Below, one piece after another: positions 31-11,605 of a stretch of DNA of 11,632 nucleotides. The notes beneath the pieces are model-generated. The model worked only from the letters and a program-made list of their open reading frames with translations, was not told the origin of the DNA and did no database searches. The position numbers and the translations under genes were made by a program. Position 1 is the stretch's first letter; each line of letters opens with the position of its first letter. Source of the DNA: an uncultured Deinococcales bacterium. GTDB taxonomy: Bacteria; Deinococcota; Deinococci; Deinococcales; JAAFIG01. The stretch is taken from positions 1 to 11,632 of the forward strand of contig CAXTKV010000173.1 of the NCBI GenBank assembly GCA_964244895.1. Reading direction: 5' to 3'.

Positions 31-73
31 GGCTCTCCCGCAGTTCGCGTGCAACCCGCTTGAAATCACCCGT
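31..73 (+). repeat. ISL3 terminal inverted repeat at the transposase 3' end
   Basis: GGCTCTCCCGCAGTTCGCGTGCAACCCGCTTGAAATCACCCGT is the exact reverse complement of 1794-1836. Confidence 0.95.
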
Positions 74-1773
74 CAAGCCATTAGAACTCGAGCCCGTAAC
101 AAATCAAATTTCGCTCGACCAAAGCCAATCCGTTTGATCAACTTCAACCGAGTCACCTGGCCTTCCACCTGGCCGTTACTCCATTCCAAAGTCATGCTCG
201 CCAGCACCGCCGCCTGATCGTTCACCACGCCATCCGCAAACCGACGTACCTCCGCGATGCCACACGCTCGAGCCTCCACAATCCAAGCCTCAAGTGCAGT
301 CGCTGAACTCAGGCTTCGATCACGCAATAAACGAGCGAACCCCTGCACCATCGCATACAGCGTTTTTGCCTCTGGAACTTCACGTTCTAACTCGGCCAGT
401 CGTTCTGGCTCTCCAGATTCAAGTTTTTCCGGTTTTCGCACGAACATCCAGACACCCTCTCGAGGTGAGTACCGGGCCTGAGATTCGAAATTCAAGGTTG
501 CCGGATCAACGAACAGTCCGGCCCGCAACCGGGCGACCAGTGCGTAAACGGAACTCAACGATCCCTCGTAACCACGACCCAGTAATTCCCAGTACATCTG
601 TTTGGTCGCCACCTCTGGCACATCAATCCGCTGCTTGACGTACTCGAAATGTGGCAGCAACCATTTGCGTCCAGGGTTGACCCGTCGATTCGGGACGATG
701 CCTTTGACTCGCCAACGGTGCGGTAGTCCTCGAGTGAACCAATTGCCAATCGATGTTCTGGACTTCCCGAGTGTCCGGGCCACGCTTCGGGCACTGAATC
801 CCTGCTCGCGTAACTGAATGGCTTTCTCGAAAACCTCGAGTTTCTTGACACGATTTTCGGCGGCATTCTGGTACGCCTGCAAGTACGAGTTTTTTCTTGA
901 GGTTCGGTTTCGTCGAGGACCAATCGGTTTGGCTTGCTCGCGGTCAGCCTCGAGTTCAGTCACCGCGTCCGCAACCACGTCAGGCACGGCGTATGAAGCC
1001 ATCTGAATGTTGGTTACTGGATCTTTCAAGTGTTTCAAATGCCTGCGTAACCAGTTCTCAACCGCCTCAGCCAGGTTCCGCAAGAGATGCCAACGATCTG
1101 CGACCTGCACCGCGCTTGGCGCTCCATCGGTTGCTCCCTGTGCATAAATCTGTCCACGATCCCGACTGATGATTTCCACACCCGGATGCACTTTCAACCA
1201 GGCTGTGAACGAGGTGGAATCTCGATCCGCCAGCACATCAACAACTTGATGTTTCTCGAGATCCACGAGAATCGTGCCGAAAACTCGGCCACGCCGGAAC
1301 GAAAAGTCATCCACGCCGAGCACCCGTGGTGTGTCTGGCAGCGCGATTGGAAAGGCTCGCGTTAAACGCAGCAGCGTATCGGCGCTCGTACTGGCGTGCA
1401 ATTTTTGTAGGAGTCTTACTCCAGCCTCCGCACCAACGGCGAGACTGATTTGGAGTTGCACGTTTTGCAATCGATTGGTGCGACGTGCTCGAGTGGCAAT
1501 CAAATCCGGGAAGGTTTCAGCGAACGTAACTCGAGCGCAATCAGGATTTCGGCATCGGTAGCGGCGAACCCGTAAGTGCAGGGTCACGGATTTCTCGGCG
1601 ATGGCGAGATCATCGGGTGCTCGAGCGTACCGGCTGTGCAAACTTTGGCTGGGTTGACCGCAGGCTGGACAGGTTGCAGTTTGGCTGATGCTGCCCGCGT
1701 GAATGATCATATGCTCTGGTTGCTCGAGAATCGTTTCGATTTCGAGGGTGGCTGGGAGGAGACTGATTTCCAT
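73..1773 (-). CDS. ISL3-family DDE transposase
   Basis: N-terminal zinc finger (CPACG...HSRY...RRYRCRNPDC), VLGVDDFSFRRG, ISRDRG, QVADRWHLLRNL, and WSNGQVEGQVTRLKLIKR..FGRAKFDLLRARVL are all typical ISL3 motifs. Start is ATG at 1773, with an alternative TTG at 1779. Confidence 0.96.
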   Translation of the reverse strand: MEISLLPATLEIETILEQPEHMIIHAGSISQTATCPACGQPSQSLHSRYARAPDDLAIAEKSVTLHLRVRRYRCRNPDCARVTFAETFPDLIATRARRTNRLQNVQLQISLAVGAEAGVRLLQKLHASTSADTLLRLTRAFPIALPDTPRVLGVDDFSFRRGRVFGTILVDLEKHQVVDVLADRDSTSFTAWLKVHPGVEIISRDRGQIYAQGATDGAPSAVQVADRWHLLRNLAEAVENWLRRHLKHLKDPVTNIQMASYAVPDVVADAVTELEADREQAKPIGPRRNRTSRKNSYLQAYQNAAENRVKKLEVFEKAIQLREQGFSARSVARTLGKSRTSIGNWFTRGLPHRWRVKGIVPNRRVNPGRKWLLPHFEYVKQRIDVPEVATKQMYWELLGRGYEGSLSSVYALVARLRAGLFVDPATLNFESQARYSPREGVWMFVRKPEKLESGEPERLAELEREVPEAKTLYAMVQGFARLLRDRSLSSATALEAWIVEARACGIAEVRRFADGVVNDQAAVLASMTLEWSNGQVEGQVTRLKLIKRIGFGRAKFDLLRARVLMA

Positions 1774-1793
1774 CGCCAAGTTTGGGTGATTTA

Positions 1794-1836
1794 ACGGGTG
1801 ATTTCAAGCGGGTTGCACGCGAACTGCGGGAGAGCC
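1794..1836 (-). repeat. ISL3 terminal inverted repeat at the transposase 5' end
   Basis: ACGGGTGATTTCAAGCGGGTTGCACGCGAACTGCGGGAGAGCC, the reverse complement of 31-73. Confidence 0.95.
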
Positions 1837-1948: not shown

Positions 1949-2791
1949 GTGATCAAGCTCTTCGGCGACGTATCGGGACTGCGCAGGGACGTTCAAGTGG
2001 GCTCCGATAGGACACCGCTGGTGGTGGCCGTCCACGGCGGTTCGTACACATCGGCTTATTTTGACCTGCCAGGTCACTCTCTATTGGATCGTGCAGCCGT
2101 CAATCACATCCCAATCATCGCTCTTGATCGACCAGGCTATGGCAGCACGCCAATCCTTGCGACGGGCGAGTCCGGGATTTGGGGACAGGCGCGGTATCTT
2201 ACGCACGCATTGAAGGGAGTCTGGACGGACTATGGGGCGGGCACGCGCGGCATTGTTCTCATCGGTCACTCGATTGGCGGTGCCATCGCGGCAGCAATTG
2301 CAAGTGAACCCGACGGTCTTCCACTCCTGGGCGTGGCGGTGTCTGGGGTCGGTTTACGGACGCCAACCGAGCACGGTCCGATGTGGAATGCACTGCCAAA
2401 TCTTGCGCAAGTTGACTTGGCTGCCGAGATCAAGAATAACGTCATGTTCGGTCCAGAGGGGAGCTTTGATCCCGAGATGAAGGCGATGAGCCACCGTGCC
2501 GACGCACCAGCCGTGCGCGCGGAACTCATCGATATTGTTGGAGGCTGGCAGGATCGCGTCAACACGGTGCTCGCAAAGATCACGGTGCCCTTCCATTACC
2601 GTCAAGCCGATACGGACCACCTCTGGATCGTTGATGAGCACGAGGTTCAAGCATTTGCCCGTGCGCTGGCAAACTCGCCGCTCGTGGACGCAGCCATCGT
2701 GCCACATACGGGACACTGCATGGACCTTCACCACGTTGGCAGTGCATTACAGCTACAGCATCTCGGGTTTGCGATGCAGTGTGCCAGTTAG
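1949..2791 (+). CDS. Alpha/beta-fold hydrolase (esterase/thioesterase-like, substrate unknown)
   Basis: VAVHGG oxyanion loop, ALDRPGYG, GHSIGG nucleophile elbow, and a C-terminal His in HTGHCMD. SD GGAGG at 1937-1941 precedes the GTG start. Confidence 0.92.
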   Translation: MIKLFGDVSGLRRDVQVGSDRTPLVVAVHGGSYTSAYFDLPGHSLLDRAAVNHIPIIALDRPGYGSTPILATGESGIWGQARYLTHALKGVWTDYGAGTRGIVLIGHSIGGAIAAAIASEPDGLPLLGVAVSGVGLRTPTEHGPMWNALPNLAQVDLAAEIKNNVMFGPEGSFDPEMKAMSHRADAPAVRAELIDIVGGWQDRVNTVLAKITVPFHYRQADTDHLWIVDEHEVQAFARALANSPLVDAAIVPHTGHCMDLHHVGSALQLQHLGFAMQCAS

Positions 2792-2864: not shown

Positions 2865-3140
2865 TCAAGCAGCCTGCCGCAAGAGGCGCTCGAATGCCGC
2901 CATCCTCGTCACCGCCCGAGCCCGCCCAGCCAGATGATCCGCCACCCGCACCAAGTTCGAGGCCGAAGCCGTCGCCACATGCTGCAACCGCGTTTTCTCG
3001 AGACCCAAGTACCTCGAGCGTCTCACGACGAATGAGCGAACGCCGACAGATACGGTTCCCTCGATCCCAGCGCGCTTCACGTACAACGCCCTGAACTCGT
3101 CCGTTCTCTCGCGAGCCCGCGCCGCCTCGAGCGCCTCGAG
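2865..3140 (-). pseudogene. IS1182-family transposase C-terminal remnant
   Basis: Reads LEALEAARARERTDEFRALYVKRAGIEGTVSVGVRSFVVRRSRYLGLEKTRLQHVATASASNLVR, the typical IS1182 DDE C-terminus (Y..RAGIEGT...RRSRY.GL.KT.LQH). The N-terminal part is absent. A probable element end lies just past the stop, near 2849 (GATACCGCTAG). Confidence 0.82.
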
Positions 3141-3488
3141 CGGGGTTGCCTAGTCGTGATCCAGGCTCGGGATTTGGCCTTGCGGTTCGCAGGCAGTCTG
3201 CGCGATCGGCAACCGAAGGTACTTGTGCCCTGGCTGCTTGCGGCTCAAACCAGCGGGATTCCCGCGTTGAAGGAGTTCGCGGTGGGGCTCGAGCGTGAGA
3301 TCGCGGCGATCAAGGCGGCGTTCGCGCTGGAATGGTCGAACGGGCAGGTGGAGGGCGTGGTGAACTGGATCCAGCTCATCAAGCGGCAGATGTTCGGAAG
3401 ATCAGGGTTCGAACTTTTGAGACGGAGGGTGTTACTAGCCGCGTGGCGACCTCGTGCATCAAACTTCGGTCAGAGCCGGTTCGCTTGA
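3135..3488 (+). pseudogene. ISL3-family transposase C-terminal remnant with terminal inverted repeat ending at 3477
   Basis: WSNGQVEGVVNWIQLIKRQMFGRSGFELLRRRVLLAA aligns with the C-terminus of the intact ISL3 transposase. The expected stop after LLAA is TGG. TGCATCAAACTTCGGTCAGAGCC (3455-3477) resembles the ISL3 end TGCACGCGAACTGCGGGAGAGCC. Confidence 0.9.
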
Positions 3489-3684
3489 CGGCCCCGCGGA
3501 ACTCCGCCTCGAGTGCGTGGCGGTGCGCTCGGCCAACGCTCGCGTCCTCGAGGTCGCGCTCGCGCAACACGGCGTGAACCGGGGCGAGCCTGGCTCGAAC
3601 CTTATCCTGCGCCACGGCGGCGGTTGACTGGCGGGGCGCGGTCGGCGGTGCCGCAAGGGTGGCGGTGCCGTCTGGCACGTTCAA
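3478..3684 (-). pseudogene. Possible truncated fifth gene of the Ubl operon, function unknown
   Basis: TTG at 3684 overlaps the E1 stop (TTGA), with an alternative GTG at 3678. The frame stays open for 69 codons with coding-like usage until it meets the ISL3 end at 3477. No recognisable motif. Confidence 0.4.
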
Positions 3685-5219
3685 CCCATTCCCCAACGGC
3701 CCCGAAACGCCTTGACGAACAGTGGGTCGCCGCAACGGCAGGATCGCGACTTGCGGCGTGGCTCGCGATCAAGACGGATCAGGTCGAAGGCATCCGCGAC
3801 CAGCACGTTCGAAGGCGCTCGCAGCGGGGCGTTCGCGAAGTGCCTGGCTTTGACGAGCTCGGCCACCATGAGCACCCCTGGCAGGAATGAAACGAAACCG
3901 ACCGTCGGCGTTGGCAGGTCCGGGCGCACGATCGCCTCCGAGCAGGCCACGCGCCGCGCTTCGGCGAAGGGCTTGCCGATCAGTTGCGCTGTGCGCTCCT
4001 CGGCCAGCACAGCGCGCCCGCGCGTGTGCATCGCCTCGGCGACCTCCTCGTCGAACACCCTCCGGCCCGAGAGCAGCTCGAGGGCCACGTCCTCGCCGAC
4101 GCCGAACTGCCGGACGACGTCGGATAGATCTGAGGTCGGCTCTGCGGGCTCAGGGTACAAACAGGCCGCGCATGGTCCCTCCTCGAAGCGGTGTTTGGAG
4201 ACCATGAAACCGCTGCCGCTCGTCCCGCCGTTGATCAGCTCGCGCGGCAGGGCGAACTGGAGGGCACGCCGGGATGCGCCCGAATCCGAGCCGCACAGCG
4301 CGATCTCGAAGGGGTCGTCGCGGCGGGGCCAGTCCTCGAACCTCACCGCCGACGCATGCACCTTGAGCGTCGGCGCGAGTGTGTTGAGAACGCTGCCCAC
4401 CTGCTCGACCTTGAGGCGGTGGACGTCGGCGCGGGCCGAGACGAAATGTCGCTCGACGTTCGAGTCGGAGAGAACGTCCGGATCGATGAGGTGCAGGCAC
4501 CCCCTGGGTCGCGGCAGGAGCGCGAGCGCGTAGGCCACCGCCGCCCCAATCGCGCCGAGCCCGAGGATCGGGACTTCGCCCAGGTCGAGTCCGGGCAGAC
4601 TGGGGTTCTGGTCGCGACCGTCGGAGTAATCGAAGGCCGACAGCCACGCCCCATCGGGCGGCCCAGGAAGCGCGTCGGGCCTGGGCACGAGGGGCCGGAA
4701 CAGCTCGGCGGCGACGAGGGCCGCGCCCCAGCCCGCGGCGAGCAGCGGCCCAAGGGGGTTGGGATCGTCCGGAGCACCGACGGCGGGCTCGAGGCCGGCA
4801 TAGGCTCGCCAGCGGTCGCTGGCGAGATGGATGACCCGTCCAGCCTCCACCTCTGCCCCACCGATCGACAGCGCGACATCGTAACCGTCACGGCGCGCTA
4901 CCGTTCCGTACTCGCCCTTGAAGCCTACCGGTGCGAGCGCCGATAACGAGGCTCCGACCGCCTCTCCGAGCAGTCGGCCCGGCTCGACCAGCGGCAGCCC
5001 CTTGCGGGCGGGAACCGGCGGGGCGAGGACGTCGAGCTGGGGGCAATAGCGAAAAAGCCGGGCGAGGACGTTCGTGCTGGCGGCGAGCATCACCTGACCG
5101 GCGAGCGAGGTCGCCCAGGCCGCTGAGACGCCGACTGCCACCCGCATTCCGCCGGGGCGGCCCTGGGTGGCCCCGAGGCTCTCGGCGAAGAGGTAGTTGC
5201 GGGACGGTTCGTCGTTCAC
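3681..5219 (-). CDS. Ubiquitin-activating E1 / ThiF-family adenylyltransferase (type II BilD-like: degenerate N-terminal adenylation-like domain, active domain, Cys domain)
   Basis: GLGAIG Rossmann motif, DPDVLSDSNVERH, RLKVE, GSDSGASR, zinc ligands GPCAAC and C-terminal SCRC, and a candidate catalytic Cys in RVACSEA. About 210 extra N-terminal residues. GTG start overlaps the JAB stop (GTGA, 5216-5219). Confidence 0.92.
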   Translation of the reverse strand: MNDEPSRNYLFAESLGATQGRPGGMRVAVGVSAAWATSLAGQVMLAASTNVLARLFRYCPQLDVLAPPVPARKGLPLVEPGRLLGEAVGASLSALAPVGFKGEYGTVARRDGYDVALSIGGAEVEAGRVIHLASDRWRAYAGLEPAVGAPDDPNPLGPLLAAGWGAALVAAELFRPLVPRPDALPGPPDGAWLSAFDYSDGRDQNPSLPGLDLGEVPILGLGAIGAAVAYALALLPRPRGCLHLIDPDVLSDSNVERHFVSARADVHRLKVEQVGSVLNTLAPTLKVHASAVRFEDWPRRDDPFEIALCGSDSGASRRALQFALPRELINGGTSGSGFMVSKHRFEEGPCAACLYPEPAEPTSDLSDVVRQFGVGEDVALELLSGRRVFDEEVAEAMHTRGRAVLAEERTAQLIGKPFAEARRVACSEAIVRPDLPTPTVGFVSFLPGVLMVAELVKARHFANAPLRAPSNVLVADAFDLIRLDREPRRKSRSCRCGDPLFVKAFRGRWGMG

Positions 5220-5803
5220 GGTAGCGCATCCTTTGCCTGAATCTCGAGGCGATGCGCCCGAACTTCGAGGCGCGCTCGGCGCTCAGCCCGATCCCACTCG
5301 CGCCAGCCGCCGCCCGTCAGCTCGAACGCGGCCCACTCGTCGGGGCCGTAGTCGCGGTCGGCGTAGTTGGGCACCACGATCGAGAGGAAGCCGGGGTCTC
5401 CGCAGATCGCCCCGGCGTCGTCGGTCTCGGAGTGAAATGCGTCGCGGGGGTGGCTGTGTACCTGGGCCAGCAGGTACTCGCCGCGCTCGGCGACAGCCTG
5501 GTTGAGGCGCTCCAACACCCCCTCGTCGCTGATTTCGACCCAGCCGAAGTTGTTGCGCGTACGTGGCAGGTAGAGGGTGGTGACGAGGCCCACGCCCTCA
5601 GCGGAGACGAGGCCGCCCCAGAAGGCCCCCTGCTCGCGCCGCCGCCGGCCCGCCTCGCGCAGGTGGGCGAGCGTCTCGAGGTGAACGGTTTGCGGCAGCA
5701 CCAGGTGCTCAAGCCGCTCCGGTCTGCGCCGCACCGAAAGGACGCGCACGACCGGCTCGGGCTCCGGGGCGCGGCGGCGGGCGAGCCGCTGGCGCAGGCT
5801 CAT
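5216..5803 (-). CDS. JAB/JAMM (MPN+) metallo-isopeptidase, Ubl-processing/deubiquitinase (BilC-like)
   Basis: Catalytic Glu in REQGAFWGG and JAMM motif AQVHSHPRDAFHSETDD (HxH-x-S-xx-D). ATG at 5803 overlaps the E2 stop (ATGA, 5800-5803) and is preferred over the track's 5875 start. Confidence 0.92.
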   Translation of the reverse strand: MSLRQRLARRRAPEPEPVVRVLSVRRRPERLEHLVLPQTVHLETLAHLREAGRRRREQGAFWGGLVSAEGVGLVTTLYLPRTRNNFGWVEISDEGVLERLNQAVAERGEYLLAQVHSHPRDAFHSETDDAGAICGDPGFLSIVVPNYADRDYGPDEWAAFELTGGGWREWDRAERRARLEVRAHRLEIQAKDALP

Positions 5804-6258
5804 CGGTTGTACCCCGCGTACTCCGGCGCATTCAGGCCCACCGCCACGGCGGTCAGCGCGTGCTCGAGTTGCCACTCGTCCGGCGTCGGGCGCGGGTGTC
5901 CGTGCGTCTGCCAGGCGAGGAACGGCGGGGCGCAGACGAAGGGCGGCATGTTGCCCGAGCGGAAGATCGACTGCGTCCAGCCCTGCCCGTCGAAGCGCTG
6001 GTAGTCGCGCGGCCAGGCCAAAGGCGAGGGGGTTTCCGTACTGGGGTCGAGAAATTCCGCGTCGGGCGCGCGCTCCGGGTAGCCGGTGCAGTCGAGACGC
6101 AAAAGGTAGTGGTCGGACACCTCACTTCGTTCACGGGCCAGCATCCAGGCCAAGACCAGGTGGCCCCGGCGCTCGATCCGGCTGACCCGCAGGTGGCCTG
6201 GATCCGGAAGCTGGGCGAGGTCGCGCTCGATGAAGTCCTCGGACAGCACGGCAAGCAT
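5800..6258 (-). CDS. Bacterial E2-like ubiquitin-conjugating enzyme (BilB-like), copy a
   Basis: UBC-like YLLRLDCTGYPERAPDAEFLDP, WP motif, candidate catalytic Cys in PFVCAPPF, then HGH...W. It sits between Ubl and JAB. SD GGAGG lies 7 nt upstream. Confidence 0.85.
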   Translation of the reverse strand: MLAVLSEDFIERDLAQLPDPGHLRVSRIERRGHLVLAWMLARERSEVSDHYLLRLDCTGYPERAPDAEFLDPSTETPSPLAWPRDYQRFDGQGWTQSIFRSGNMPPFVCAPPFLAWQTHGHPRPTPDEWQLEHALTAVAVGLNAPEYAGYNR

Positions 6259-6262
6259 GGCG

Positions 6263-6568
6263 TTACCTCCAGCCAGCGGCGTACTGCTTCACCAGACGCA
6301 TCTCGAGTTTGCGGGGGCGGCTCGGCTCACGCTCGGCCACCGCGCCCACTGCGTCCTCGGGCCGCAGCACCTCGCCGCGGTACATCAGATCCCAGCGGTC
6401 GCCGGGCTGCTCGACCACCCCTGCCGCTTGGAGCACCTGACGGATGACGGCGGCGATCTTGGCGGCGGGCTCGACCTCGAGTTCGACCTTGCCGCCGCCC
6501 TGGACGTGCACCTCGAGGGTGTAGGTGGCGGGTCGGGGGGACGGCTTCGTGTGTCCTGCGGTATCCAT
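6263..6568 (-). CDS. Ubiquitin-like beta-grasp protein (single-domain, BilA-like) with C-terminal AAG-WR tail
   Basis: Ubiquitin-fold pattern YTLEVHVQGGGKVELEVEPAAKIAAVIRQVL...WDLMYRGEVLRPEDAV...LEMRLV, comparable to ubiquitin LEVEP and LIFAGKQL. Gly lies two residues from the end. First gene of the E2-JAB-E1 operon; SD GGAGG at 6575-6579 (minus strand). Confidence 0.87.
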   Translation of the reverse strand: MDTAGHTKPSPRPATYTLEVHVQGGGKVELEVEPAAKIAAVIRQVLQAAGVVEQPGDRWDLMYRGEVLRPEDAVGAVAEREPSRPRKLEMRLVKQYAAGWR

Positions 6569-6587
6569 AATCTACCTCCGGGTGTCA

Positions 6588-6693
6588 CTTGCCAGAAACG
6601 TCAAGAGAATTATACATTGAATTGCCATTCCCGTCAAGTATGAAGGGCCGTAGTGGCAATAGCCGTGGCAAAATTCCTTGCCGCTGCGGTAAG
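6588..6693. promoter_or_regulatory. Putative operator array for the XRE repressor
   Basis: TTGCCA-N4-CGTCAAG occurs twice (6589-6605 and 6622-6638, both pseudo-palindromic). Related palindrome CTTGCCGCTGCGGTAAG at 6677-6693, and GTGGCAA half-sites at 6653 and 6665. Confidence 0.65.
6609..6637 (-). promoter_or_regulatory. Sigma70-type promoter of the Ubl-E2-JAB-E1 operon
   Basis: Minus strand reads TTGACG (6637-6632), 17 bp, TATAAT (6614-6609), about 40 nt upstream of the Ubl ATG, in an AT-rich island. Confidence 0.85.
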
Positions 6694-6728
6694 GTGGAGT
6701 CGATCCAAGACGGATCAAGGAGGACACC

Positions 6729-7145
6729 ATGCCGCAGGCTCCGCCCCGCTCGACCGCCCCGCCGACCGCCCAAAGCGGCGAGAAAACCCCAGACCTGTAC
6801 ATGCAGATCGGTCAGCGCCTCAAGCGCGCCCGCGAGGCCAAACGCCTCAGCCAGGACGAACTGGGCGCCTTGGTGGGCGAGGGCGCGATCGCCATCTCGC
6901 GCTGGGAAACGGCCAGCCGGAAGCCCAACGTCGAGGACCTCGCCAAGTTGGCCGCAGCGCTCGACCAGAGCATCCTCTACTTCGTGGAGGAGGTCATCCC
7001 GCAGGATAATTTTGTCGCCCGACTCAACCGTCTCGCCGGAGAACTCGACGAGACCGACCGCGAGGATCTGCTGGCCCTCGCCCGGTTCAAACACCAGCGC
7101 TACGTAGAGCGCCGACTCCAGGCCGAAGAGGAAAAGAAGGTTTGA
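6729..7145 (+). CDS. XRE/Cro-family HTH transcriptional repressor (ImmR/CapH/DdrO-like role)
   Basis: IGQRLKRAREAKRLSQDELGALVG...AISRWETASRKPNVEDLAKLAAALD, followed by a C-terminal helical segment (LDETDREDLLALARF). SD AGGAGG at 6718-6723. Confidence 0.95.
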   Translation: MPQAPPRSTAPPTAQSGEKTPDLYMQIGQRLKRAREAKRLSQDELGALVGEGAIAISRWETASRKPNVEDLAKLAAALDQSILYFVEEVIPQDNFVARLNRLAGELDETDREDLLALARFKHQRYVERRLQAEEEKKV

Positions 7146-7148
7146 GCC

Positions 7149-7856
7149 ATGGCCGAGCGCCAGACCTTCCTCGACATGAACCGTCTGGCGCTCGCGCTTC
7201 TCCGCGAGCACGGCGTCGCCGAGCCGCCGGTCAACATCTACCGGATCATCGAAGAGCGGAAAATCGAGTTGTTCTTTTGGCCGTTGACGCCCAAGCTCTC
7301 AGGCTTCTACGAGCACTGCCCGATCACGGGAAAAAGCATCACCATCAACCTCCGCGACGACCAGCGCAAGCAGCGCTTCACCGCCGGTCACGAGCTTAAA
7401 CACGCGATCTGCGAACCCGATAAGGATCACGCCGCGCTCGAGCAGGGCAAACTCCGTCAAGTCGAGCGCATGGCGAACGCGTTTTCGGCCCGACTCCTGC
7501 TGCCTGAAGCGATGGTCAGACGCGTGATGCGGTCGATGAGAGCAGAGGTGTGCGTGGGACTCTTGGCCGACGTCTTCGGGGTGCACACCAACGTGGCGGT
7601 CTTCAGGCTGCACAACCTCGGGATGATCGGTTCGGGCGAGCGCGATCGCATCCTGGCCGATCCCGCCCTGGACCACGAACGGTACACGCGCTTCCGGCAG
7701 GACGGCCTGCCTGGGCCTTCCAGCGGATTTACCGCCGTTGACCGGCTTTTGACTGGCCCGGCGCGCGGTTCGGGGCGCACCTGCCCCCACTGCACCAGCC
7801 CATGGGTCGAAGCCCGCGCAGCCGTCTGCTGGGCGTGCGGGCGACACCCCGTGTGA
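7149..7856 (+). CDS. ImmA/IrrE-family (peptidase M78) metallo-endopeptidase with C-terminal zinc ribbon
   Basis: PPVNI, RFTAGHELKH (HExxH), third ligand in VERMANAFSARLLLP, HTH-like LADVFGV....AVFRL, and C-terminal CPHC...CWAC. Starts 3 nt after the HTH stop. Confidence 0.93.
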   Translation: MAERQTFLDMNRLALALLREHGVAEPPVNIYRIIEERKIELFFWPLTPKLSGFYEHCPITGKSITINLRDDQRKQRFTAGHELKHAICEPDKDHAALEQGKLRQVERMANAFSARLLLPEAMVRRVMRSMRAEVCVGLLADVFGVHTNVAVFRLHNLGMIGSGERDRILADPALDHERYTRFRQDGLPGPSSGFTAVDRLLTGPARGSGRTCPHCTSPWVEARAAVCWACGRHPV

Positions 7857-7896
7857 GCCGAAAGGACGAACCTCGGACGGCTACAGGACTGTCCGT

Positions 7897-8355
7897 TCAG
7901 CCTGAGCGGTTGTAGCCCGAGTATTCCGGGCGGTTGATGCCGGTGGCGACCGCCGTCACCGCCTGCTCCAGGGTCCACTCCGCAGGGGTTGGGAACGCGT
8001 GCCCGCGCTCCCGCCAGGCGAGGAACGGCGGCGCACACACGAACGGAGGGAAGGCATCCGACCGGAAGATCGAACTGGCTCCGGACGGCAGGCGGTAGTC
8101 GCGCGGCCACCAGTTCGGGTCGTCCTGAAGCGTGACGGGGTTGAGAAAGCGCGCATCGGGCGGACGCTCCGGATACGAGCCGAGTTCCAGCCAAAGAAGG
8201 AATCGATCCGAACGCCGTTGGGCCGCGCCCCCGAGCATCCAGACGGCCACCGCGTCCCCTCGGCGCTCCACCCGCTCGAGGCGGAGGCCTGCCGCCAGTT
8301 CTAAGAGGTGTGTCACCTCGTTGTCCAGCAACTCGAACTTGAGCTGGCCTAGCAC
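7897..8355 (-). CDS. Bacterial E2-like conjugating enzyme, copy b (paralogue of 5800-6258)
   Basis: Roughly half identical to copy a by manual alignment, including ERRG, YPER.PDA.FL.P, WPRDY, SIFRS, PPFVCAPPFLAW and PEY.GYNR. GTG at 8355 gives 152 aa, the same length as copy a. The frame is open upstream to ATG 8373 and TTG 8466. Confidence 0.85.
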   Translation of the reverse strand: MLGQLKFELLDNEVTHLLELAAGLRLERVERRGDAVAVWMLGGAAQRRSDRFLLWLELGSYPERPPDARFLNPVTLQDDPNWWPRDYRLPSGASSIFRSDAFPPFVCAPPFLAWRERGHAFPTPAEWTLEQAVTAVATGINRPEYSGYNRSG

Positions 8356-8547
8356 CCGTGTCCACCCCTTCATCACCCTACACACATGCCAGCCATAAGT
8401 GGTGTTCGGACGCACGCGGCATAGGTGGATGCCACCCCCCACGATTATGGAATGAAACTCATCCAATTTTGGAAGGGGATCGGATCACGAATCTAGACGG
8501 ATTCGGAATTTTGTGAGAAACTACGGGGCAGGGCCGGGGAGGGTTTC

Positions 8548-8715
8548 GTGAGAGCGCTCACTTCGACACGTCCGATGACCTGCTGCGGGGGCGGCAAACC
8601 TGCCCGAATCCCGTGCGACAGGGGTCGTGAACCAGAGGCAGACGCGTGCCTGCCGGGCGTACGTTTGCCGAGCACAGAGCTTTTCGCCTCCCTCGCGGGG
8701 CATGGGGTTGGCTGA
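8548..8715 (+). CDS. Small 55-aa ORF, possible degenerate XRE-HTH remnant
   Basis: GGGAGG SD, GTG start, and TGATG overlap with the next gene. Segment RLPSTELFASLA matches RKPNVEDLAKLA of the HTH at 6/12 positions. Confidence 0.3.
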   Translation: MRALTSTRPMTCCGGGKPARIPCDRGREPEADACLPGVRLPSTELFASLAGHGVG

Positions 8716-9425
8716 TGTCGGCCCGCGAACACTCGACCGTCGTCGGGGCGAAGGCCCTGGCAGAACAACTGGTCTTCCATCTCGGCCTCGAGGCCGCGCC
8801 GGTCAACGTTTTTCACGCCCTCGAGCGCCGTGGCATCGACGTCAACCCCTTCCCGACCAAGGGAGAGAACATCCTCGGTGCGTACACCAACGAGGTGCCC
8901 TACGGCCCGACCTTGTCGCTGAGCAACCGGCTGGACAACGCCATGCGGAGGCTCATCGGTGCCGAGCTTCTCTACTACGACGTGGTCCCGAGACCGGCGG
9001 GGATAGTCACGGCGCGAGGTCGCTCGAGGCGGCTCCAACCTGTGGCTCGGGCCTTCGGCACCGCTTTCCTCATGCCAAGCCATCTGGTCCAGGAGATCGC
9101 GGAACTTGCGGATTCCAGGAACGCCGCCTTGTTTGCGGAAATTCTTGGCGTCCAGTACGACGTCGCCTGGCAGCGCCTGCGGTCGCTCGGTCTGCTTGCC
9201 GTGCATGCGCGTCCGCCGACACAAGGGCGTCGTCAGATCGACATTGACGCCCTGCGCGAGCGGCGCGTCCAGTTCGCCGCCAAGATCCGCGAGCGCATGC
9301 CCAGAGCCGCAAGGATTCTCGGGCCTCAGACGATGCCCGATTACTACGGATATTGCAGCACTTGCAGCCGCCCCAGGTTGGGTGACGGCCAGCCCTGGTG
9401 CTGGTCTTGTGGGGCGCGACTATAA
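8715..9425 (+). CDS. Predicted catalytically inactive ImmA/IrrE-family paralogue with C-terminal zinc ribbon
   Basis: Collinear with 7149-7856 (APVNVF, ARAF...FLMP, FAEILGV..DVAWQRL..LGL, CSTC...CWSC), but GHELKH is GAELLY and VERMANAF is LQPVARAF. ATG at 8715 gives 236 aa versus 235 aa. Confidence 0.85.
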   Translation: MSAREHSTVVGAKALAEQLVFHLGLEAAPVNVFHALERRGIDVNPFPTKGENILGAYTNEVPYGPTLSLSNRLDNAMRRLIGAELLYYDVVPRPAGIVTARGRSRRLQPVARAFGTAFLMPSHLVQEIAELADSRNAALFAEILGVQYDVAWQRLRSLGLLAVHARPPTQGRRQIDIDALRERRVQFAAKIRERMPRAARILGPQTMPDYYGYCSTCSRPRLGDGQPWCWSCGARL

Positions 9426-9667: not shown

Positions 9668-10576
9668 ATGGATCTGTTGACGAACGCGATTGAATCAATC
9701 CAGGTCGGCGTGGGGACTTCCAGGACGGCTCGCGACCGCGCCTCCTCTCGGCGGTGCGCAACCTTCACGCCGGTATCCTTCTCCTGTACAAGGAGGCGCT
9801 CAGCCGAATGTCGCCCGCGGGGAACGGCGCGAGGTTCTGATCAAGGCGCGCACGAAGTGGGTGCGAGGGGCGAGCGGACGGCTCGAGTGCGTGGCGGATG
9901 GCCGGAACACGGTGGACATCCAGCAGATCAGGGCGCACTTCAAGAACCTGGGCGTGGGACGGACTGGCAGCGCTTCGACCGGATCACAGCCGTCAGGAAT
10001 GAGGTGGGACACTACTTCCCGGCGAACCCCAAGGCGATTACTGGGGTCGTCGCAGACGCCCTGACGATCATCCGGTCCTTCATCGCCGACGAACTCAACG
10101 ACGAGCCCCGAACACTGCTCGGCCAGGCGACCTGGTCCGCCATGCTCCAGGCGCAAGAGGTGTATAACGCCGAGAAGCTGGTCTGCAACGAGAGCTTCGT
10201 TAGCGTCAGCGAGCCATCGGAGGAGTTCTTGGACGCGGCGCGGTCGCTCGCGTGCCTGTCCTGCGGATCCGACCTGCTCGAGCTTCACGAGGCCACGCGA
10301 TCCCGCGAGGACTGGCGGCTGCGCTGCCGGGCCTGCGACGCAGAGGCCTGGGGCGCAGAGGTCTACGAGTCGGTCCAGAACGGCGGAGCGGTGCCGTACG
10401 TCGCCTACCCGGAATGCGGCACGGACGCATACGTGATGGAAGAGCACCGGTGCCTGTACTGCGGTCACGAGGCCGAACACGAGTGCAAGATGTGCGTTGC
10501 CGGGATACCCGCCGAGGAACTCGACCCCTCGCCGTACTGCGGGCACTACGCCTACATCATGGCCAAGGACGACTGA
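9668..10576 (+). pseudogene. Frameshifted HEPN-like (RNxxxH) protein with C-terminal zinc ribbons
   Basis: A coherent protein (MDLLTNAIESIQVGV/DFQDGSRPRLLSAVRNLHAGILLLYKEALSRMSP/EVLIKA...NTVDIQQIRAHFKNLGV/TDWQRFDRITAVRNEVGHY) is recovered only with frame changes near 9713, 9829 and 9957. CxxC motifs follow, two of them degraded (YPEC, CGHY). Confidence 0.7.
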
Positions 10577-10960: not shown

Positions 10961-11605
10961 ATGCCCTACGAATTCCTCAACGACAACCACCTCGCCCAGT
11001 ACGGGCGATTCACCACCGACCCCACGCCCGACCAGTTGATCGACTGCTACCGCCTGACTAGCGAAGATCACAAACTCGCCCACGCGAAGCTTGAGGCCCA
11101 CAACCGACTCGGACTAGCCGTGCAACTCAAAACCGACGAGGCGATCAGGCTCGAGCGCGTCAATGGCATCCTCACCCCAGTAGTGACGTCGCTCGAGAGC
11201 CTGCCGGAATCCCCGAGCCTCACCAGCTTGGACGCGAACATGACCTCGCGCCTGCCGGAGATCGACCTGTCGGAGTTGCTTTTGGAGGTAAACGCGGCTA
11301 CCGGGTTCTGCGACGCGATGGTGCTGGCCAGCCAGGGGAATCCCAGGCTCGAGTACCACGCACAGGGCGTGTGTGCGGTGTTGGTGGCTCAGGCGTGCAA
11401 CATCGGCTTGAAGGCGGTTTCGCAGCCTGGGAATCCGGCGTTGAACCTGGGTAGGCTCGCTTGGGTACAGCAGAATTATGTGCGATCCGATACGATCCTC
11501 AACGCCAACGCCTGGCTGGTGGAGGCGCACTCGAAGCTCCCCATCGTGCAGCGCTGGGGTGGGGGCGAGGTCGCCAGCGGAGGGTATAGAACGAAGTGTG
11601 TCTAA
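10961..11605 (+). pseudogene. tnpA: Tn3-family transposase, internally deleted and 3'-truncated
   Basis: N-terminus MPYEFL....AQYGRF..DP...QL...HNRLGLAVQL is joined in frame near 11134 to the mid-protein block LPEIDLSELLLEVNAATGF...AVLVAQACNIGL...NYVR..T...ANA.LV...WGGGEVAS. Homology stops just before the expected ADG catalytic motif. Confidence 0.92.

What the first reader, a model, noticed from the sequence alone, without database searches (positions are those of the whole stretch)
3681..9425. Ubiquitination (Bil-like) defence locus with a protease-repressor switch plus an extra E2 and a dead protease paralogue
Seen: an eight-gene layout, [E1<JAB<E2a<Ubl] promoter/operators [HTH>IrrE-ZnR] [<E2b] [pseudo-IrrE-ZnR>], with all frames intact. 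Known: Ubl-E2-JAB-E1 with an IAD-AAD-Cys E1 is the type II BilABCD antiphage architecture, and HTH plus HExxH peptidase pairs (CapH/CapP, ImmR/ImmA, DdrO/IrrE) are stress-triggered derepression switches. Inference: this is an inducible bacterial ubiquitination system with two E2s sharing one E1/Ubl and a non-catalytic IrrE-like partner. I do not recognise that extended form as described.
Basis: partly seen in the sequence, partly recalled or inferred. Interest (0 to 1): 0.9.

Follow-up and report, generated by a model that had tools for sequence, protein, structure and literature searches.

The report
Bil ubiquitin locus with duplicated genes
This is an intact bacterial ubiquitin-like tagging operon with a repressor/protease switch, a known pairing that likely defends against phages, and its new feature is an old, still-intact extra copy of the carrier enzyme (E2) plus a copy of the switch protease that has lost its zinc-binding residues, both seen together in this one genome only.

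Summary
All eight genes are present and intact. Ubl-E2-JAB-E1 keeps every catalytic residue mapped in E. aridi BilABCD, but by profile score and tree it is a separate Bil branch, neither catalogued type I nor CEHH type II. Bil plus an HTH/peptidase switch is published (25 of 162 type II operons), and this scan has noted it on other DNA. The peptidase is not CapP: it has a zinc ribbon in place of the GAF domain, and its closest relative sits in a phage-satellite-like element. Two 16-bp operator-like palindromes overlap the divergent promoters. E2b is the sister of E2a (95/89), has the E2 fold, keeps its Cys, and has saturated silent sites, so it is an old copy under selection. The pseudo-IrrE has lost all three zinc ligands but keeps an open frame and its zinc ribbon. 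A second, independent E2 duplication occurs in one related locus (L007); the pseudo-peptidase was found nowhere else. E2b and the pseudo-peptidase lack the operator, so they are likely not co-induced. New variant of a known kind; interest 0.45, not 0.9.

The parts
3681..5219 (-). E1 (BilD-like), 512 aa, IAD-AAD-CYS
   Evidence: Best PDB hit is type II BilD 8tyz_A, E 9.8e-27. R257=R246, C426=catalytic C417, zinc C350/C353/C494/C496=C340/C343/C491/C493. All invariant in 6 of 6 close sequences. R7 as the IAD arginine is inferred.
5216..5803 (-). JAB/JAMM deubiquitinase (BilC-like), 195 aa; start overlaps the E2a stop, stop overlaps the E1 start
   Evidence: Prok-JAB 1.9e-6; PADLOC BilC 4e-16; H116, H118, S125 and D128 invariant in 7 of 7 rows
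5800..6258 (-). E2a (BilB-like), 152 aa, Cys109 and His121; no CEHH Glu or first His
   Evidence: DUF7665 7e-7; PADLOC BilB 1.3e-8; the Cys is the only invariant column across 12 E2s; a profile that includes CEHH-type rows hits 8tyz_C at 1e-12 with the Cys in register, the close-clade profile only at 0.035
6263..6568 (-). Ubl (BilA-like), single beta-grasp, conserved Gly99 followed by Trp-Arg
   Evidence: Weak DUF2604, ubiquitin and Rad60-SLD hits below cut-off; G99 invariant in 5 of 5 rows
6589..6637 (.). Divergent promoter region with two 16-bp operator-like palindromes (6589-6604, 6622-6637), each covering a -35 hexamer
   Evidence: repressor binding is inferred
6729..7145 (+). XRE-type HTH repressor, 138 aa
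   Evidence: HTH_3 6e-12; capH 3.5e-11; 52% identical to the HTH of an integrative element in G061
7149..7856 (+). IrrE/ImmA-like M78 peptidase with C-terminal zinc ribbon, 235 aa; H81-E82-x-x-H85 and E106 intact; no GAF domain
   Evidence: Peptidase_M78 4.5e-15; capP 61.5 bits over model 6-152 of 242 only, against 238.6 bits full-length for a true CapP; CxxC at 212 and 227
7897..8355 (-). E2b, 152 aa (158 from ATG 8373), Cys107 and His119; separate transcription unit
   Evidence: AlphaFold2 pLDDT 94; top fold match type II BilB 8tz0_C, prob 1.00, TM 0.55, E 4.6e-3; sister to E2a 95/89; pN 0.35, pS 0.57, four-fold sites at saturation
8715..9425 (+). Pseudo-IrrE-ZnR, 236 aa: peptidase fold without zinc ligands, zinc ribbon kept
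   Evidence: Only row of 25 without the two His and the Glu ligand; E106 to Q108; CxxC at 214 and 229; M78 E 0.023; Atlas neighbours are M78 clusters

Best explanation
This is an intact Ubl-E2-JAB-E1 operon of a divergent Bil branch that likely tags phage proteins, likely held off by the neighbouring repressor until the zinc peptidase cuts it, and an old local duplication likely left a second E2 and a metal-less peptidase copy that selection has kept. Steps: (1) the HTH likely binds the two palindromes and blocks both divergent promoters (sites shown, binding inferred). (2) On stress the HExxH peptidase likely cleaves it (active site shown; cleavage inferred from CapP/IrrE/ImmA; the trigger is uncertain because the GAF domain is absent). 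(3) JAB would trim Trp-Arg after Gly99, E1 would adenylate the Ubl and take it on Cys426, then pass it to E2a Cys109 for lysine conjugation (residues shown, chemistry inferred from E. aridi). (4) E2b, made from its own operator-less unit, likely takes Ubl from the same E1, the only BilD-like E1 found in the genome, and widens or shifts target choice, alone or as a heterodimer with E2a (about 0.6). (5) The pseudo-peptidase cannot hold the catalytic zinc and most likely damps the switch by binding repressor or activating signal without cutting (about 0.35; the weakest step).
For: Catalytic residues in register with 8tyz. Overlapping start/stop codons through E2a-JAB-E1. Promoter and operator sites. 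Published pairing of Bil with such switches and published anti-phage action of Bil. One E1 and two E2 matches in the genome. E2a+E2b sisters 95/89. Four-fold third positions 0.40 identical against 0.36 at saturation while 52% of residues are kept. E2b keeps 27 of 31 C-terminal and 6 of 11 N-terminal columns shared by three relatives (E2a 30 and 8). Neutral drift to the observed divergence left no stop in 39 of 500 (E2) and 2 of 300 (IrrE) runs. A neighbouring PDC-S64-like gene in the same island is frameshifted. BilB is a homodimer and its variable loop is proposed to pick targets. An independent E2 duplication exists in L007.
Against: One genome only: no locus of the five closest E1 relatives could be fetched, so conservation of the extra genes is untested where it matters. 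No pseudo-peptidase was seen in 16 fetched Bil-like loci, 4 plasmid loci or G061. E2b has a branch about three times longer than E2a (0.74 against 0.26) and the pseudo-peptidase about five times longer than IrrE (3.25 against 0.62), which also fits relaxed selection. The IrrE/pseudo-IrrE sister link is weak (88/73) and its NG86 values do not show dN well below dS (dN 1.08, dS 1.40). No Ubl or HTH remnant lies in the second spacer. Only weak promoter-like sites (8 of 12) face E2b and none face the pseudo-peptidase. The drift simulation has no indels and puts all change on one lineage, so it cannot exclude recent loss of function. Defence is inferred, and the nearest fetched relative (L007) has AAA ATPases and no switch.
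Confidence: 0.55

Rival explanations
1. Ordinary six-gene Bil-plus-switch locus; E2b and the pseudo-peptidase are leftovers of a partial duplication that no longer contribute.
For: Long branches for both copies; no operator and weak or no promoter in their spacer; the pseudo-peptidase was found at no other locus; transposon-rich island.
Against: Saturated silent sites with open frames; E2b keeps Cys, His and fold; the pseudo-peptidase keeps four zinc-ribbon cysteines; a real pseudogene next door carries frameshifts.
Confidence: 0.2
2. The branch serves stress signalling or protein turnover more than phage defence, the E2 copies choosing different host targets.
For: L007, the closest fetched locus (E1 36%), has an AAA ATPase, Ubl, JAB, E1, a DnaA-ATPase-E2 fusion and a second E2, with no switch. 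The type II paper shows conjugation to many E. coli proteins.
Against: The window lies in a mobile island beside a PDC-S64-like defence candidate; the E1 clade matched 0 of 363 other genomes of the phylum, a patchy spread typical of defence genes; such switches accompany immune operons.
Confidence: 0.13
3. E2b and the pseudo-peptidase form their own head-to-head module: the dead peptidase is an adaptor or sensor that brings E2b to a target, or E2b is a standing Ubl sink that restrains the induced pathway.
For: Head-to-head layout with a shared operator-less spacer; Bil has no E3; E2b differs most in its N-terminal part.
Against: No co-occurrence elsewhere; L007 has two E2s and no IrrE-like gene; the layout is simply explained by duplication.
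Confidence: 0.12

Closest known systems
Type II BilABCD (CEHH/6C), Ensifer aridi TW10, PDB 8TYZ/8TZ0; Chambers et al., 10.1101/2023.09.26.559546
   Same: Gene order; IAD-AAD-CYS E1 with all mapped catalytic and zinc residues; single-domain Ubl with a short tail after Gly; E2 fold with Cys and nearby His; 25 of 162 operons carry CapH/CapP.
   Different: E2s lack CEHH Glu and first His and are shorter (152 against about 205 aa); E1 and E2 fall outside the type II clade; no second E2 or dead peptidase is noted in the 162-operon Table S1, though it has only one E2 column.
Type I BilABCD (PADLOC PDLC03844-47; Hor et al., 10.1101/2023.09.04.556158)
   Same: Gene order; E2 without CEHH Glu and first His; weak hits to BilB, BilC and BilD models.
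   Different: Scores 33, 57 and 62 bits against 202, 210 and 548 for a true type I locus (L054); no BilA hit; single, not double, beta-grasp Ubl.
CapH/CapP (Lau et al., 10.1101/2022.04.27.489752; Calloji et al., 10.64898/2026.05.16.725639)
   Same: HTH followed by an HExxH M78 peptidase, divergent from a defence operon.
   Different: No GAF domain, which forms one side of the ssDNA groove in CapP; zinc ribbon instead; no cysteine-switch-length insertion evident; a dead paralogue nearby.
ImmR/ImmA-type switch of integrative elements (G061:C7, locus L048)
   Same: Same order and lengths; HTH 52% and peptidase 31-34% identical, including the zinc ribbon.
   Different: There it sits among integrase, primase, HNH and small-terminase genes, with no Bil genes and no dead copy.
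Bub operons (Ye et al., PMC11601596)
   Same: Ubl/E2/JAB/E1 set; 168 of 544 have CapH/CapP.
   Different: Bub uses fused genes, an E1 without the catalytic cysteine and a DUF6527 protein; here the genes are separate and both Cys residues are present.

Membership tests
Bil (either type) | Separate Ubl, E2, JAB, E1 in that order | tested here: met
Type II BilABCD | IAD-AAD-CYS E1 with adenylation Arg, catalytic Cys and four-Cys zinc site | tested here: met
   R257, C426, C350/353/494/496 in register with 8tyz
Type II BilABCD | CEHH motif in E2 (Pfam Metal_CEHH) | tested here: not met
   Cys and last His only; no PF14455 hit, while type II proxies L003/L004 score 1e-18 to 1e-20
Type II BilABCD | E1 and E2 group with catalogued type II sequences | tested here: not met
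   The NGR234 type II clade (E1 99, E2 97/94) excludes the window clade (E1 99, E2 100/98); E1 tree by the quick method, long branches present
Type II BilABCD | Ubl with conserved Gly followed by 0-9 residues | tested here: met
   G99 then Trp-Arg
Type I BilABCD | Double beta-grasp Ubl and family-level scores on BilA-D models | tested here: not met
   101-aa Ubl, no BilA hit; BilD 62 against 548 bits, BilB 33 against 202
Bil (either type) | Ubl conjugation to lysines and phage protection | not testable with these tools
   needs bench work
CapH/CapP | HExxH...E peptidase beside an HTH repressor | tested here: met
   H81, E82, H85, E106
CapH/CapP | C-terminal GAF domain | tested here: not met
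   capP match stops at model position 152 of 242; C-terminus is a CxxC..CxxC ribbon
CapH/CapP | ssDNA-stimulated cleavage of the repressor | not testable with these tools
   needs bench work
Active M78 peptidase (for the 8715-9425 gene) | Two His and one Glu zinc ligands | tested here: not met
   No His in the motif in either alignment register; E to Q. Whether the catalytic Glu survives depends on register
Bub | Cys-less E1, fused genes, DUF6527 partner | tested here: not met

The most novel reading that the evidence does not exclude
A third Bil branch that repeatedly duplicates its E2 to split target recognition, the first step toward a multi-E2 ubiquitin hierarchy in bacteria, here with a pseudo-peptidase that tunes the switch or acts as an adaptor for the second E2.
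Probability: 0.2. Interest if true: 0.8.

Novelty: new variant of a known kind. Interest (0 to 1): 0.45.

Why it matters
How Bil picks targets without an E3 is open; the type II paper proposes the E2 loop and E2 dimer. Two natural E2 paralogues served by one E1 and Ubl make that directly testable by deletion and loop swap. A pseudo-enzyme regulator of an IrrE/ImmA-type switch was not found in my literature searches. The branch also scores far below family level on current Bil models. All this rests on one genome plus one distant locus.

Full report
Observation. The window is a whole 11,632-bp contig of a 5.1-Mb, 328-contig assembly. All eight genes are open in the layout described. Starts were refined from GC3, SD-like sequence and database calls: JAB at 5803, E2b at 8355 or 8373, pseudo-IrrE at 8715. 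E2a, JAB and E1 overlap at start/stop codons, which suggests one transcript. The cluster is flanked by ISL3, IS5-type and Tn3 pieces and an alpha/beta hydrolase. A PDC-S64-like gene follows it and is split over three frames.

The core. The E1's best solved relative is type II BilD (E 9.8e-27), with the adenylation Arg, the catalytic Cys and the four zinc cysteines in register (residue roles from Chambers et al.). JAB keeps HSH...S..D. The Ubl ends in a conserved Gly plus two residues, the kind of tail that BilC trims. Both E2s keep the Cys that aligns to Cys138. An alignment-based model of E2b (20 rows, 7 of them CEHH-type; pLDDT 94) has type II BilB as top fold match, with no hit under E 0.001. 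So the core very likely works like Bil.

Which Bil. It is not type I: a true type I locus scores 548 and 202 bits on BilD and BilB, the window 62 and 33. It is not catalogued type II either: the E2s lack two CEHH residues, miss Metal_CEHH, and in trees of 20 E1s and 21 E2s the window clade lies outside the clade holding the S. fredii NGR234 operon (several long branches). The clade is rare. Five E1 clusters at 46-53% identity came up among 8000 scored candidates. An E2a search of 1.84 billion representatives gave 7 hits, 3 at 46-53%. The E1 profile matched 1 of 364 genomes of the phylum, the window's own.

The switch. Bil with CapH/CapP is published: 25 of 162 type II operons and 168 of 544 Bub operons. 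The same divergent six-gene layout is on a Ralstonia plasmid, and a co-oriented one is in L003. The window peptidase has an intact HExxH...E site but no GAF domain: it matches only the first 152 of 242 capP positions, whereas the Ralstonia CapP matches throughout. The GAF domain forms one wall of CapP's ssDNA groove, so the trigger here is uncertain. IrrE-like matches were found in 25 of 364 genomes; of 25 relatives examined, only that of G061 carries the zinc ribbon. There, with an HTH 52% identical, it lies among integrase, primase, HNH and small-terminase genes, without Bil. The switch was therefore likely recruited from an ImmR/ImmA-type mobile-element module. Two palindromes cover the -35 hexamers of the divergent promoters. 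The loose whole-window test was not significant; the spacer test, devised after seeing the sites, was (0 of 2000 shuffles; 15 of 3000 random genome windows).

The extra genes. E2a and E2b are sisters (95/89; unresolved in a smaller 9-row tree). Their four-fold sites are at saturation (0.40 against 0.36) while 52% of residues match, so the duplication is old and both copies were under selection. E2b has changed faster, most in its N-terminal third. The pseudo-peptidase is the only one of 25 aligned rows without the two His and the Glu ligand, yet its frame is open and both CxxC pairs remain. Substitution-only drift to 25% identity left an open frame in 2 of 300 runs, a one-sided test that cannot exclude recent loss of function. 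Its sister link to the window IrrE is weak (88/73, long branch). The arrangement [<E2b spacer pseudo-IrrE>] mirrors [<E2a <Ubl HTH> IrrE>] with the inner genes gone, but no remnant is detectable. The spacer has no operator (best 8 of 12) and only weak promoter-like sites toward E2b.

Recurrence. The 16 loci collapse to about 10 systems, 8 with a visible E2; four plasmid loci add 4 more (flanks only 3.5-4 kb). One of these 12 has two E2s: L007, the closest by E1, with an AAA ATPase, Ubl, JAB, E1, a DnaA-ATPase-E2 fusion and a second E2. Its two E2s are sisters (100/99), so this is an independent duplication. None showed a dead peptidase. The loci of the five closest relatives could not be fetched; matching contig lengths pair two of their E1s with an E2 each but say nothing on second copies. 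Table S1 of Chambers et al., read whole, notes fusions and losses but no second E2 or dead CapP.

Mechanism. Most likely a stress-inducible Bil-type defence in which E2b, made separately, is a second Ubl carrier with altered target range, and the pseudo-peptidase damps the switch. The gene set, residues, sites and selection signal are shown. Binding, cleavage, conjugation, defence and both accessory roles are inferred.

Papers seen. Chambers 10.1101/2023.09.26.559546: parts 1-3 of 7, Table S1 whole, first part of Table S4; its supplementary PDF with the type I/II comparison was not read. Gong PMC11601603: part 1 of 6. Calloji 10.64898/2026.05.16.725639: part 1 of 3. Lau 10.1101/2022.04.27.489752, Ye PMC11601596 and Iyer PMC1779556: passages. 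Hor 10.1101/2023.09.04.556158: abstract and discussion. The label phage-satellite-like for L048 is my reading of its gene content, from recall. The host lineage was not determined.

Verdict. Observation confirmed; interpretation partly supported. New variant of a known kind, interest 0.45. The six-gene core is ordinary. The divergent branch, the recurrent E2 duplication and the retained pseudo-peptidase are real and worth a bench test, but the eight-gene form is known from one genome.

Noticed in passing
L007:36-5255 (Ga0070699_100007491): Operon of AAA ATPase, Ubl, JAB, E1 with a very short CYS insertion, a DnaA-ATPase-domain protein fused to an E2, and a second E2. I found no description of a DnaA-E2 fusion in the papers read; possibly more novel than the window.
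   Followed up: partly
window 9668-10576: PDC-S64-like candidate defence gene (E 3e-21) whose N-terminal part is split over three frames, apparently a pseudogene.
   Followed up: partly
window 31-1836: Complete ISL3-family element with 46-bp inverted repeats and an intact 568-aa transposase; further ISL3, IS5-type and Tn3 fragments at 2865-3488 and 10961-11605.
   Followed up: no
window 1949-2791: Lone alpha/beta hydrolase with lower GC3 between IS pieces.
   Followed up: no
L048:4094-13854 (G061:C7): Integrative element (integrase, 924-aa primase protein, HNH, small terminase) with the closest HTH/IrrE-zinc-ribbon pair and a perfect 12-bp inverted repeat upstream of the HTH.
   Followed up: partly
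L003, L004, L009, L012, L017: CEHH-type Bil loci in which JAB lies downstream of E1 on the opposite strand, in some several kb away; L004 has a divergent MerR-type regulator instead of CapH/CapP.
   Followed up: no
L055:3232-5994 (NZ_CP084885.1): Ubl-E2-JAB-E1 operon on a haloarchaeal (Natrinema) plasmid.
   Followed up: no
P0018: Ubl-E2 fusion of the non-CEHH branch, with the Ubl Gly internal, so JAB cleavage would release the E2.
   Followed up: no
window 8462-8505: Two small palindromes in the AT-rich part of the E2b spacer, unlike the main operator; role unknown.
   Followed up: no
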